Of a DNA stretch of 64,000 nt, positions 27,001 through 30,000 are shown piece by piece. Position 1 is the stretch's first letter. Each line of letters starts with the position of its first letter. The position numbers are program-made. The DNA comes from Chrysemys picta bellii. Its lineage: Eukaryota. The stretch is taken from NCBI RefSeq assembly GCF_011386835.1, contig NC_088793.1, positions 41,044,001 through 41,108,000 on the forward strand, written 5' to 3'.

Positions 27001-30000
27001 ACTCAATGTGCAGTGGCAGTAAAAACTAACAAAATGTTAGGAACCACTAAGAAAGGGATAGATAACACTGCTCTACAGCCAAAATGCTTCTGAAATAAAT
27101 GCAGTCAAACTTTACTAATTCTGGGTCACTGAGAATGAAAATGATGCTTAAAATTGTTTGGCTCTAGTTTTCAAGATATGCTATTCGGTCAGTATATACG
27201 ACCCTTGACTTTGGAATGGCGGAGGATAAGTGAGTTATAAAGGGAAGGGATCTCAATTTAAACCAGAAATGACTAAAATACATCTTTGACTGGATCTATG
27301 AATAAATCTATGACTGGGTTTGGACAGTACTTGCTTTTTAGGCAAAACAATGAATGATGCAATCTGAAGCTGGTATTGCGTCATACATGATATGGATTGC
27401 ATCATGTTATTCCTAGAAGTCATGGATGATGCAATCATAACGAAGCTTACGTCACTCTGCTGAACAAATTGCCCTGTATCAGCTCTAGAAATCAGACAGT
27501 GTCGTGCTCTGTTATTTGTCAGTGTTTGATTTTGCAAAGGGACACATTTTTGTTTAGCCAAAGTGAGCAGAGATGCCTCGTACTTGTGTGAACAGTGCAG
27601 ATAACTTCTGCTATGTTTGTGGTGAAGTGACTTTTGCATCACAAGAGTGCAGTATAACCACTATGGTTAAGAAAGCCTATCACCTTTATTTTGGCTACAA
27701 AATTGGAGATCAGGACAAGAGGTGGGCCCCACACATATGCTGCAACACTTGTGCAACAAATCTTCGCCAGTGGTTGAACAGGAAAAGGAAATCTATGCCT
27801 TTTGCAGTGCCAATGATTTGGAGAGAGCCAACAGATCATCCGAGCAATTGTTACTTCTGCATGGTGCCTCCAGTTGGGAAAGGTGTGTCAAAGAAGAAAA
27901 AGTGGACTGTGCATTATCCAAACATTCCATCAGCTATACGCCCAGTACCCCACAGAGAAGGACTGCCGGTTCCTGATGCACCAGAATCATTCTCACTTGA
28001 GTCAGACGAGGAAGAGGATGAAACTTCTGGTCCTGAACCATCAATGTCACAGGACCCACATTTTCTCCCATCCTCCTCCTCTGAACCACACCTCATAACA
28101 CAAGGTGAACTGAATGACCTTGTCAGGGATTTGGACAGTAAGGCAGAGCTGTTGGGCTCCAGACTACAGCAGTGGAATCTCCTGGCAGGTGATGTTAGGG
28201 TTTCCATGTTCCGGGACCGTCAAAAGGATCTTGTCCCATTCTTTTTCATGGAAGGTGATCTTGTAGCCTGCCACAACATCGATGGTGTGATGGCAGCCCT
28301 CAACATTGTTCACGATCCAGATGAGTGGAGACTGTTCATTGATTCATCGAAGACGAGTCTTAAAGCTGTTTTACTGCATAATGGCAATGTTTGGCATCAA
28401 TTCCAGTTGGTCATGCAATCCATATGAAGGAAACCTATGACAGCATGAAACAACTTTTGAGGTGCATAAACTATGACCAACATCAGTGGCAGCTTTGTGG
28501 CAATTTGAAGGTTGTTGCTCTCTTGCTTGGTCTGCAGACTGGATACACAAAGTACTGCTGTTTTCTCTGCGAATGGGATAGTCGTGCAAGAGATTCCCAC
28601 TACATCAAGAAAGATTGGCCACTCCGACAGTCATTGGAGCCTGGGAGGAAAAGTGTTCAGCATCCACCACTTGTTGAATCAAGGAAGATTTTGTTACCAT
28701 CCTTACACATCAAGCTGGGTCTGATGAAGAACTTTGTCAAGGCCATTGACAAAACACAAGCAGCTTTCAAGTACCTCCATGGAAAATTTCCAAGGTTAAG
28801 TGAAGCTAAGATAAAGGAAGGTGGCTTTGTTGGTCCTCAGATTCATGAACTTCTTCGAGATGATGCATTTGACCATGCACTGCGTGGCAAGGAAAAGACG
28901 GCATGGAAAGCCTTCCAGTTAGTGGCAATAAATTTTCTCGGAAACAACAAGGCAGACAACTACAGGTTGTTGGTGGAAAACCTCCTCGAGGCATACAAAA
29001 GCCTTGGTTGCAACATGTCACTAAAGATACAGTTTTTGCACTCTCATCTAGATTTTTTTCCACCGAACTGCGGAGCAGTGAGCGACGAGCACGGCGAGCG
29101 ATTTCACCAGGACATTGCAACAATGGAGAAACGCTATCAGGACAAATGGAGCCCATCAAGGTTTGCAGACTATTGCTAGACAGTGACAAGAGATGCTCCG
29201 TTTAATGAATACAAGAGACAAGCCAAGAAGCGCCGAGTAGACACTGAATAGGACTAAACTATGTACATAATAGTTTTTTGCCCTTTGTTTCATAATAAAT
29301 TTTATTTATATAACCCTTTTGCAGATTTTTAAAGTGTTACATAAATAGGGCAGGTGAAATATTATCATGTAAAGCAACCATAAGCACATGAAAAGACCTA
29401 GGTTTACAATTTATGGTTAAAACTTTACTATCTACACAATATACATAGACATAAAATGTAAAAACTTAAATATCTTAGAAACCGTAGCCAATCAGTTGTT
29501 TTAATTGACATATTTGAATTCAGCACATCAAAATACATAATAAATAGCACATTTTATCTCTGACGCAGACGACTTCTCAAAAATTGTAGACCAGTGTAAT
29601 CAGACAAAAAATATCATAATGCCGCTATATAAATTGATGGTACGCCCACATCTTGAATACTGCATGCAGATGTCGTCACCTCATCTCAAAAAAGATATAT
29701 TGGAATTGGAAAAGGTGCAGAGAAGGACAACAAAAATGTTTAGGGTCATGGAACAGCTTCTGTATGAGCAGAGATTAAAAGGACTAGGATTTTTCAGCTT
29801 GGAAAAGAAATGACGAAGGGGGGGATATGATAAACGCATATAAAATCTTGACTGGTGTAGTGAAAGTGAATAAGGAAATGTTATTTACTCCTTCACATAA
29901 CACAAGAACTAGGGGTCACTAAATGAAATTGGTAGGAGGTTTAAAACAAACCAAAGGAAGTACTTCGTCACACAACATTGTCGAAAAAAAAATAGATAAG

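What the first reader, a model, noticed from the sequence alone, without database searches (positions are those of the whole stretch)
27066..29596. Full-length Chapaev3 transposon with intact ends inserted into a CR1
Seen: 2531 bp, CACTG..CAGTG termini, an exact TAA TSD, and the host CR1 frame is restored on excision (KGIDN|QTKNII). The transposase is ~555 aa and still almost open. Established (recalled): Chapaev3 elements make 3-bp TWA TSDs, belong to the CMC group related to Transib (the RAG1 progenitor), and have been reported as repeatedly horizontally transferred among insects, fish, lamprey and reptiles (Zhang et al. 2014). The motifs YCCFLCEWD and LHIKLG parallel RAG1 YICTLCD and LHCDIG. 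Inference: a relatively young, possibly horizontally acquired family.
Basis: partly seen in the sequence, partly recalled or inferred. Interest (0 to 1): 0.68.

Follow-up and report, generated by a model that had tools for sequence, protein, structure and literature searches.

The report
Dead Chapaev3 transposon inside a turtle LINE
This is a full-length but inactivated copy of a known kind of cut-and-paste DNA transposon (Chapaev3, a distant relative of the RAG1 immune recombinase) sitting inside an older retrotransposon in a turtle genome; it is ordinary, apart from a striking likeness to a lamprey copy.

Summary
Window 27066-29596 is a 2531-bp element with CACTG...CAGTG ends. Its inverted repeats match at 11 of 12 bases, and a TAA duplication flanks it in an A|TAA|T context. 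Removing it restores the frame of a LINE reverse transcriptase.

It carries one transposase gene of 560 readable codons; intact turtle relatives have 562 aa. The gene is dead:
- a 1-nt deletion and a premature TAG;
- a 9-bp deletion;
- 20 substitutions, two of them at family-invariant residues (D->N and H->Q).

The closest proteins are turtle gene models (Chrysemys, Malaclemys, Macrochelys, Pelodiscus). Pfam has no model for the protein. An AlphaFold model of an intact turtle relative matches RAG1, RAG-like and Transib structures best. [quoted passage not shown] Every Chapaev3 hallmark that I could test is met.

On horizontal transfer, the nearest named non-turtle relative is a lamprey protein, 89% identical after masking its frameshifted parts. 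A frog homologue is 58% identical, and a test rejects a single vertebrate clade. No DNA-level test was possible.

The superfamily, its transfers and its presence in a turtle are already recorded, so this is ordinary. Only the lamprey-turtle link was not found in print.

The parts
26569..27065 (+). Left part of the host LINE (CR1-type) reverse-transcriptase fragment. It is decayed and contains stop codons.
   Evidence: tblastn of turtle RT proteins. A search with 26740-27065 gave 77 hits, 75 of them named, all turtle RT-domain proteins with Pfam PF00078. Pfam RVT_1 on this piece alone is weak, E 0.011.
27063..27065 (.). Left copy of the TAA target-site duplication, preceded by A.
   Evidence: TWA duplication between A and T is described for Chapaev3 in PMC4079192, section 14.
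27066..29596 (+). Whole Chapaev3-type DNA transposon, 2531 bp.
27066..27077 (+). 5' terminal inverted repeat, CACTGCTCTACA.
   Evidence: 11 of 12 bases match the reverse complement of the 3' end.
27354..27436 (.). Three exact copies of ATGATGCAATC (+, -, +) in the 5' non-coding part. They may be subterminal binding sites or promoter elements (inference).
   Evidence: These are the only 3 matches in the window at up to 1 mismatch.
27573..28391 (+). Transposase ORF, first frame (aa 1-273). Residues 1-136 (27573-27980) form the N-terminal zinc-finger (Chapa-like) domain. The first candidate catalytic D is the GAT at 28341-28343.
   Evidence: AF2 model of residues 1-136 has pLDDT 90.9. Its top 7 Foldseek hits are ZAD domains, E 0.27-1.7.
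28134..28139 (+). Site of a 9-bp in-frame deletion. The residues L-P-K, present in 11 of 11 turtle sequences covering the site, are missing.
28389..28394 (+). Site of the 1-nt deletion that shifts the reading frame (...NGNV | LASIPVGH...).
28391..29176 (+). Transposase ORF, second frame. It holds the C(2)C motif (TGT 28559, TGC 28568), the LH motif (CAC 28706), the H(4)H motif and the E (GAG 29096).
28502..28504 (+). AAT (N) where all 40 aligned relatives have D (D314 of P0128). This is the candidate second catalytic aspartate. The change is a CpG-type transition.
29030..29032 (+). CAG (Q) where all 40 aligned relatives have H (H490 of P0128), the first H of the H(4)H motif.
29177..29179 (+). 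Premature TAG in place of a nearly invariant W (W539 of P0128).
29180..29251 (+). Last 23 codons of the transposase and its own stop codon (TAG, 29249-29251).
29294..29299 (+). AATAAA, a candidate polyadenylation signal 43 nt after the stop codon.
   Evidence: Seen in the sequence only. Its function is inferred.
29585..29596 (+). 3' terminal inverted repeat, TGTAGACCAGTG.
29597..29599 (.). Right copy of the TAA target-site duplication, followed by T.
29600..30021 (+). Right part of the host LINE fragment: the end of the RT ORF and the 3' region.
   Evidence: tblastn, (P0153, P0172, P0196 and P0151 continue here from the residue where the left flank stops).

Best explanation
This is a fossil copy of a Chapaev3-group cut-and-paste DNA transposon. 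The group is filed under CMC, or under the Transib superfamily in the wide sense. The copy inserted into an older, already 5'-truncated CR1-type LINE in a turtle genome.

What is shown:
- The transposase recognised an A|TAA|T target and duplicated the TAA.
- The element carries short CAC...GTG inverted ends.
- It encodes one intronless transposase of about 562 aa with two parts. The first is an N-terminal Chapa-type zinc-finger domain. The second is a DDE core with invariant C(2)C and H(4)H residues. The predicted fold of that core is closest to RAG1, RAG-like and Transib proteins.

What is inferred from that fold and from the RSS-like CAC end:
- A dimeric transposase pairs the two ends and nicks next to CAC.
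- It frees the element through hairpins on the flanking DNA, as RAG and Transib do.
- It then inserts the 3'-OH ends 3 bp apart.

This copy cannot make an active enzyme. It has a 1-nt deletion, a nonsense codon and a 9-bp deletion. It also has D->N and H->Q changes at invariant positions.

Both ends and the duplication are kept, so in principle it could still be moved in trans. Intact 562-aa ORFs of the family exist in Chrysemys and Malaclemys gene models.

The family is multi-copy in several turtle lineages. Its closest named relative outside turtles is in a lamprey. That points to horizontal transfer somewhere in its history. The direction and date are unknown.
For: Anatomy:
- TIRs, TSD and the restored host frame.

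Transposase and its lesions:
-.
- Against the turtle majority residue: 20 substitutions in 558 compared positions, plus one nonsense codon.
- 5 of these 21 point changes are CpG-type transitions.

Family:
- The 90%-identity cluster of the best hit, P0001, has 23 members, 17 of them named. Of the 15 members listed, the 14 named ones are all turtle gene models.
- P0128 and P0131 are uninterrupted 562-aa ORFs colinear with the window and without an intron.
- The family is very large: 17179 representatives at E<=1e-3 and 1305 at E<=1e-30.
- Invariant columns in 40 diverse full-length relatives are D260, D314, C333, C336, L381, H382, H490, H495 and E512.

Fold:
- AF2 model of P0128 has pLDDT 87.7.
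- Foldseek against the PDB lists 39 rows: 32 RAG1 chains, 1 amphioxus RAG-like, 4 Helicoverpa Transib, and then 2 P-element transposases at ranks 48 and 50. The best E is 6.5e-8, with TM 0.43-0.48.

N-terminal domain:
- Foldseek with the N-terminal model gave ZAD domains as its top 7 hits.
- Kapitonov & Koonin 2015 (PMC4411706, passages read) state that the Chapa domain is present in Chapaev3. [quoted passage not shown]

Chapaev3 hallmarks:
- Taken from PMC4079192 (sections 3, 14, 16 and Table 1 read).

Horizontal transfer:
- Lamprey P0120 is sister to the turtle clade: SH-aLRT 98 in the quick tree and 100/98 in the careful tree.
- P0120 is 362/406 (89%) identical to the turtle-majority-like P0001 after masking its frameshifted stretch and junk tail. 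Frog P0032 is 252/431 (58%) identical to the same masked lamprey sequence.
- P0120 residues 109-142 are a shifted-frame translation. They match the window's own shifted frame at 31 of 34 residues. This is DNA-level likeness that protein selection cannot explain.
- Holding turtles, lamprey and frog together as one clade is rejected, p-AU 9.4e-20.
Against: - No tool gave the name 'Chapaev3'. Pfam has no model for the window pieces or for intact P0128. No Repbase or Dfam consensus could be compared.
- Foldseek TM-scores are modest (0.29-0.50). The catalytic role of D260, D314 and E512 rests on invariance and on spacing recalled from RAG1, not on a residue-level superposition.
- The N-terminal similarities are all below significance (E 0.088-1.7).
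- The transfer evidence is at protein level and rests on one decayed lamprey gene model. The group tested was named after the first tree had been seen. Old paralogous lineages would give the same incongruence.
- The nearest unnamed relatives (P0002, 79%; P0003, P0005 and P0006, 72-73%) have no organism names, so the true nearest hosts are unknown.
- The family occurs in Trionychidae, Emydidae and Chelydridae, so it may be old within turtles.
- Branching inside the turtle clade is unreliable. Several gene models contain shifted-frame stretches.
Confidence: 0.92

Rival explanations
1. The family was inherited vertically from an early vertebrate ancestor. It survives in turtles and lampreys only because other lineages lost it. 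No horizontal transfer is involved.
For: The family is present in three turtle families, including the deeply diverging softshell Pelodiscus. Turtles evolve very slowly, at about one-third of the human rate (PMC4054807, section 9 read). Only about a quarter of database proteins carry names, so absence from other vertebrates is not shown.
Against: - The lamprey copy is 89% identical in protein to the turtle majority, and a shifted-frame stretch matches 31/34. Both copies are broken and therefore not under protein-level selection in place.
- The frog homologue is only 58% identical and groups with leech and insect sequences.
- Vertebrate monophyly is rejected.
- Chapaev3 elements of lampreys are documented as horizontally transferred (PMC4079192).
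Confidence: 0.12
2. The ORF is a domesticated or ordinary host gene, not a mobile element. Some RefSeq names suggest this (isoforms of boule-like, NMNAT3, NCBP3).
For: Several cluster members are named as isoforms of host genes, and intact 562-aa ORFs exist.
Against: - This copy has inverted ends, a target duplication and a precise insertion into a LINE ORF.
- It is broken in four ways.
- There are many paralogous, differently frameshifted copies per turtle genome.
- A published table counts 866 Chapaev-3 copies in Pelodiscus (PMC7070016, supplementary file MOESM7, part 6 read).
Confidence: 0.02
3. The element belongs to another superfamily whose transposase has a related fold, such as Transib proper, hAT or P.
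For: The best structural matches are RAG1 and Transib, and P-element transposase also appears. No reference Chapaev3 sequence was compared.
Against: - The duplication is 3 bp (TAA). By recall, Transib makes 5 bp and hAT and P make 8 bp.
- The N-terminal zinc-finger domain is reported only for Chapaev and RAG1-type proteins (PMC4411706; preprint 10.64898/2026.01.24.700457), and the preprint reports no such domain in Transib.
- The C(2)C, LH and H(4)H motifs, and the size, fit Chapaev3 (PMC4079192).
- Relatives occur in Helobdella and lamprey, both listed as Chapaev3 hosts (PMC4079192 Fig. 1 legend; PMC4411706 Fig. 2 legend).
Confidence: 0.04

Closest known systems
Chapaev3 group of DNA transposons (Kapitonov & Jurka 2008, cited in PMC4411706; characterised in Zhang et al. 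2014, PMC4079192)
   Same: - 3-bp TWA duplication between A and T, and CAC...GTG termini.
- A single transposase of about 556-562 aa with C(2)C, LH and H(4)H motifs.
- Element length of about 2.3-2.5 kb.
- N-terminal Chapa-type zinc finger.
   Different: Nothing tested differs at group level. This individual copy is dead. No direct comparison with a reference consensus was possible.
Merrow (Chapaev3-1_PM) of lampreys, sturgeon, catfish, tuna and a dragonfly (PMC4079192, Table 1)
   Same: - Merrow of lampreys is 2451-2455 bp and encodes 78+484 = 562 aa. The turtle family is 2531 bp here and encodes 562 aa.
- The nearest named non-turtle protein is from the lamprey Lethenteron reissneri, 89% identical after masking.
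   Different: - Merrow is described as having two exons. The turtle ORF is continuous.
- I could not show that P0120 is Merrow, nor measure nucleotide identity.
- Turtles are not mentioned in that paper's main text (0 occurrences). Its supplement is a PDF that I could not read.
RAG1 / RAG-like / Transib transposases
   Same: - They are the closest solved folds to the predicted transposase.
- Element ends begin with CAC, like the RSS heptamer (recalled).
- By recall, RAG1 has the same order of a second D, then C(2)C 19 residues later, then H(4)H, then E.
- The N-terminal zinc finger is related to the RAG1 N-terminal domain, according to the literature read.
   Different: - Sequence identity in the structural alignments is only 9-13%.
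- There is no sequence-level hit to the RAG1 core.
- The duplication is 3 bp rather than 5 bp (recalled).
- No RAG2-like partner gene lies in the element.
CR1 LINEs of turtles (the host of the insertion)
   Same: The flanks encode the C-terminal part of a LINE RT whose relatives are all turtle RT-domain proteins. CR1 is by far the most abundant LINE counted in Pelodiscus, with 185853 copies (PMC7070016 MOESM7).
   Different: The label CR1 was not given by any tool. It rests on recalled CR1 motifs and on abundance.

Membership tests
Chapaev3 (CMC / Transib-related DNA transposons) | 3-bp TWA target-site duplication, inserted between A and T | tested here: met
   A-TAA-[element]-TAA-T. The criterion comes from PMC4079192, section 14.
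Chapaev3 (CMC / Transib-related DNA transposons) | Terminal inverted repeats with invariable 5'-CAC ... GTG-3' | tested here: met
   CACTGCTCTACA / TGTAGACCAGTG, 11 of 12 complementary. The criterion comes from PMC4079192, section 3.
Chapaev3 (CMC / Transib-related DNA transposons) | Transposase with DDE triad and C(2)C, LH and H(4)H motifs | tested here: met
   Met for the family: D260, D314, C333, C336, L381, H382, H490, H495 and E512 are invariant in 40 sequences. In the window copy, C(2)C, LH, the first D and the E are kept. The second D is N and the first H of H(4)H is Q.
Chapaev3 (CMC / Transib-related DNA transposons) | N-terminal Chapa zinc-finger domain | tested here: inconclusive
   Conserved Cys positions: C16, C57, C60, C93 and C96 invariant, C5 and C13 nearly so. 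The AF2 model is confident, pLDDT 90.9. Matches are below significance: ZAD E 0.088 and RAG1 N-terminal zinc finger E 1.2 by profile; ZAD E 0.27-1.7 by Foldseek.
Chapaev3 (CMC / Transib-related DNA transposons) | Sequence similarity to reference Chapaev3 consensus sequences (Repbase/Dfam) | not testable with these tools
   No repeat library is on hand. Indirect evidence: relatives in Helobdella and lamprey, which are listed Chapaev3 hosts (PMC4079192), and Chapaev-3 counted in Pelodiscus.
Chapaev3 (CMC / Transib-related DNA transposons) | Catalytic core of the RAG1/Transib structural type | tested here: met
   In Foldseek against the PDB, the first 37 listed rows are RAG1, RAG-like or Transib. 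Best E 6.5e-8.
Merrow family (Zhang et al. 2014) | At least 80% nucleotide identity over at least 300 bp to the Merrow consensus | not testable with these tools
   No Merrow DNA was available. At protein level, a lamprey gene model is 89% identical to the turtle majority after masking.
Merrow family (Zhang et al. 2014) | Transposase encoded by two exons (78 + 484 aa) | tested here: not met
   Intact turtle proteins map colinearly to the window without an intron. Only the 1-nt frameshift separates the two tblastn pieces. The total length, 562 aa, is the same.
CR1 LINE (host of the insertion) | LINE-type reverse transcriptase ORF | tested here: met
   77 hits, all with Pfam PF00078 except one. 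All 75 named hits are turtle proteins. One 1018-aa hit also carries endonuclease domains.
CR1 LINE (host of the insertion) | Assignment to the CR1 clade rather than another LINE clade | not tested
   The name rests on recalled CR1 C-terminal motifs and on CR1 being the dominant turtle LINE.
Transib proper | 5-bp target-site duplication (recalled definition) | tested here: not met
   The duplication is 3 bp.

The most novel reading that the evidence does not exclude
The turtle family and the lamprey element are one and the same young lineage (Merrow or its sister). It would have crossed between jawless fish, or their fish hosts, and turtles. That is a transfer between vertebrate classes that I did not find in print. 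Intact 562-aa ORFs with all invariant residues in Chrysemys and Malaclemys would then mean that a RAG1-related transposase is still potentially active in living turtles.
Probability: 0.3. Interest if true: 0.45.

Novelty: already known. Interest (0 to 1): 0.25.

Why it matters
As it stands, this is a textbook nested insertion of a known transposon type. It is useful mainly as a clean, datable marker, because both ends, the duplication and the host frame are preserved.

If the lamprey-turtle affinity holds at DNA level, it adds a reptile branch to the known network of Chapaev3 transfers. The intact turtle ORFs would also offer a natural Chapaev3 transposase for biochemistry. [quoted passage not shown]

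Tried and rejected
Searches that gave nothing useful:
- Pfam gave no family for either ORF piece or for intact P0128.
- A single-sequence search of PDB sequences gave only chance hits. The profile search gave nothing for the catalytic core.
- blastn of the element against the rest of the window found no other copy.
- Rfam found nothing in the window.
- Cluster look-ups for the nearest unnamed relatives gave no organism names. I did not trace unnamed records.

Papers and supplements I could not read:
- Yuan & Wessler 2011 (PMC3093488) is not held, so the CMC motif definitions are taken second-hand from PMC4079192.
- The supplement of PMC4079192 is a PDF. It may hold target-duplication tables, consensus alignments and species lists that bear on whether turtles were seen.
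- The large supplementary files of PMC7070016 (MOESM6, MOESM8) cannot be read. They may list a transfer event involving turtle Chapaev-3.

A line of reasoning I dropped:
- I considered using the grouping of Chrysemys P0130 with Macrochelys P0133 as a sign of an old orthologous insertion.
- I rejected it. The shared branch comes from stretches translated in the same shifted frame, starting at different points in each model.

Literature coverage:
- 'Chapaev' plus 'turtle' found 6 papers. I read the 'Chapaev' passages of 3 of them and none describes a turtle Chapaev family. The other 3 I saw only as search listings.
- 'Merrow' plus 'Chapaev' found only the 2014 paper.
- The main text of PMC7070016 has no occurrence of turtle, lamprey or Chapaev.

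Steps left out or closed:
- The broken ORF was never sent as a joined read-through to a search or a fold. Its pieces were searched by reference, and the natural intact relative P0128 stood in for the whole protein.
The genome collection holds only bacteria and archaea, so no DNA of other animals could be fetched.
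Full report
**Observation**

The stretch 27066-29596 is exactly as described.
- It is 2531 bp long and begins CACTG and ends CAGTG.
- The first 12 bases (CACTGCTCTACA) match the reverse complement of the last 12 (CACTGGTCTACA) at 11 positions. There is no similarity beyond that.
- TAA lies immediately outside both ends, at 27063-27065 and 29597-29599.
- The base before the left TAA is A and the base after the right TAA is T.
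- The window has no N and no other copy or fragment of the element.

**Host element**

Removing the element and one TAA joins two open stretches into ...TTKKGIDNQTKNIIMPLYKLMVRPHLEYC....

A protein search with the left flank (26740-27065) gave 77 hits. All 75 named ones are turtle proteins, from sea turtles, Chrysemys, Gopherus, Pelusios and Pelodiscus. All but one hit carry the reverse-transcriptase domain PF00078.

In tblastn, all 4 of the 4 proteins that cover both flanks continue across the insertion without loss or gain. They share one residue at the junction, as a duplicated TAA predicts. A fifth protein covers only the left flank.

The LINE fragment is itself decayed, with stops and only 57-77% identity to relatives. 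It must be older than the insertion. That it is 'CR1' is my recall of CR1 motifs. CR1 is also by far the commonest LINE counted in Pelodiscus. No tool gave that name.

**The gene and its lesions**

One transposase gene fills the middle of the element.
- ATG at 27573.
- First frame to 28391, second frame 28391-29176.
- An internal TAG at 29177-29179.
- 23 more codons, then the true stop at 29249-29251.

Intact turtle relatives (P0128 of Malaclemys, P0131 of Chrysemys; 562 aa) map onto it colinearly and without an intron.

I compared the copy with the majority residue of 15 turtle-cluster sequences. It has:
- 20 substitutions in 558 compared positions;
- one nonsense codon, W to stop;
- a 1-nt deletion at 28389-28394;
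- a 9-bp deletion removing L-P-K at 28134-28139.

Five of the 21 point changes are CpG-type transitions. That is the usual decay of a silent, methylated vertebrate repeat.

Two changes hit residues that are invariant in a 40-sequence alignment of diverse full-length relatives:
- D314 to N (28502-28504);
- H490 to Q (29030-29032).

The copy is therefore dead several times over. Its ends are nearly intact.

About 21 changes over roughly 1280 non-synonymous sites is about 1.6%. Turtles evolve at about one-third of the human rate (PMC4054807, section 9). With recalled absolute rates, this means tens of millions of years. It is a rough inference and not 'young' in absolute terms.

**What family**

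Pfam has no model for this protein.

The closest 90%-identity cluster has 23 members, 17 of them named. Of the 15 members listed, the 14 named ones are all turtle gene models, from Chrysemys picta bellii, Malaclemys terrapin, Macrochelys suwanniensis and Pelodiscus sinensis. Some are misnamed as isoforms of host genes.

The family is enormous: 17179 cluster representatives at E<=1e-3.

Zhang et al. 2014 (PMC4079192; sections 3, 14 and 16 and Table 1 read) give these features for Chapaev and Chapaev3:
- a 3- to 4-bp duplication, TWA between A and T for Chapaev3;
- CAC...GTG termini;
- C(2)C, LH and H(4)H motifs;
- a transposase of about 556-562 aa;
- an element length of 2.3-2.5 kb.

All are met here. 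The motif residues C333, C336, L381, H382, H490 and H495 are invariant in the family, together with D260, D314 and E512.

No Repbase or Dfam consensus could be compared, so the name is not confirmed directly.

**Relation to RAG1 and Transib**

Sequence searches of PDB chains found nothing for the core.

An AlphaFold model of intact P0128 (pLDDT 87.7) was searched against the PDB with Foldseek. The 39 listed rows are:
- 32 RAG1 chains;
- 1 amphioxus RAG-like protein;
- 4 Helicoverpa Transib chains;
- 2 P-element transposases, only at ranks 48 and 50.

The best E is 6.5e-8. TM-scores are 0.29-0.50 and identity is 9-13%.

This supports the published placement of Chapaev3 beside Transib and RAG1 (PMC4411706, Fig. 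2 legend and section 6 read).

The second D lies 19 residues before C(2)C, and H(4)H lies 17 residues before the invariant E. This recalls the RAG1 order of D708, C727/C730, H937/H942 and E962. Those numbers are from memory. E962 is confirmed only by entry titles.

**N-terminal domain**

Residues 1-136 of the window copy fold confidently (pLDDT 90.9). Conserved cysteines are listed.

[quoted passage not shown] The top 7 Foldseek hits of the domain model are ZAD domains (E 0.27-1.7, TM up to 0.61 on the target).

None of these is significant alone. They match what preprint 10.64898/2026.01.24.700457 (passages read) reports for Chapa domains, the RAG1 zinc finger and ZAD domains.

**Horizontal transfer**

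The nearest named relative outside turtles is P0120 of the lamprey Lethenteron reissneri.

Its residues 109-142 are a shifted-frame translation. They match the window's own shifted frame at 31 of 34 residues. The likeness is therefore at DNA level, in a frame that no selection on the protein can preserve.

After masking that stretch and a junk tail, P0120 is 362/406 (89%) identical to P0001. P0001 equals the turtle majority at all 534 of its residues. The frog homologue is 252/431 (58%) identical to the same masked lamprey sequence.

In a careful maximum-likelihood tree of 42 sequences:
- the lamprey is sister to the turtles (100/98);
- the turtle stem is only 0.008 long;
- frog, leech, moths, firefly and pseudoscorpion lie elsewhere.

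Holding the vertebrates together is rejected, p-AU 9.4e-20. That group was named after I had seen a first tree, and old paralogy would give the same result.

Branching inside the turtle clade is unreliable, because several gene models hold shifted-frame stretches.

Lamprey Merrow (Chapaev3-1_PM) is 2451 bp and encodes 78+484 = 562 aa (PMC4079192, Table 1). That is the same protein length as the turtle family, but it is described as having two exons. I cannot say whether P0120 is Merrow.

**What is in print**

- Zhang et al. 2014 does not mention turtles in its main text. Its supplement is an unreadable PDF.
- Chalopin et al. 2015 names Chapaev as a transfer candidate only in anole, fugu and platyfish.
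- Zhang et al. 2020 (PMC7070016) lists 866 copies and 2 families of CMC-Chapaev-3 in Pelodiscus, and 3461 copies in Petromyzon, in a supplementary table. Its event tables are too large to read.
- Searches for 'Chapaev' plus 'turtle' (6 papers) and 'Merrow' plus 'Chapaev' (1 paper) turned up no description of a turtle family or of a lamprey-turtle link. Of the 6 papers, I read the 'Chapaev' passages of 3 and saw the other 3 only as search listings.

**Limits**

No DNA of other animals could be fetched. Copy number, consensus, dS and empty-site tests therefore remain undone.

The broken ORF was searched piece by piece, by reference. The natural intact relative P0128 stood in for the whole protein.

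**Verdict**

The object is an ordinary dead member of a known transposon group that is already recorded in a turtle. Its one point of wider interest is the close lamprey relative, which deserves a DNA-level test.

Noticed in passing
window 27354-27436: Three exact copies of ATGATGCAATC in + / - / + orientation lie within 83 bp of the element's 5' non-coding part. They are the only matches in the window. They could be transposase-binding or promoter motifs.
   Followed up: partly
window 1047-2192 (+): Pieces of an LTR-retrotransposon pol gene. An integrase core (Pfam rve, E 6e-9) is directly followed by a reverse transcriptase (RVT_1, E 1e-21). That order is unusual.
   Followed up: partly
window 48792-49669 (-), 23004-23474 (-), 31025-31195 (+): Further decayed LINE reverse-transcriptase fragments of the same kind as the host of the insertion (tblastn).
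   Followed up: no
window 13271-13684 (-): An ORF containing ...LDPRFKNL..., which I recall as a hAT-transposase C-terminal motif. Pfam gave no hit.
   Followed up: partly
window 13100-16800: A G+C-rich stretch with long overlapping ORFs on both strands. It is probably a repeat or low-complexity region and was not examined.
   Followed up: no
proteins P0121, P0126, P0131: RefSeq turtle gene models name this transposase ORF as isoforms of host genes (boule-like, NMNAT3, nuclear cap-binding protein subunit 3). These are likely annotation chimeras of intronic transposon copies.
   Followed up: no
proteins P0120, P0125, P0130, P0133 against window 27817-28098 and 28873-29205: Lamprey and turtle gene models contain stretches translated in a shifted frame. 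These stretches equal the window's own shifted-frame ORFs. This is useful as a DNA-level signal but misleading in trees.
   Followed up: yes
window 42392-42424: An uninterrupted run of 33 T.
   Followed up: no
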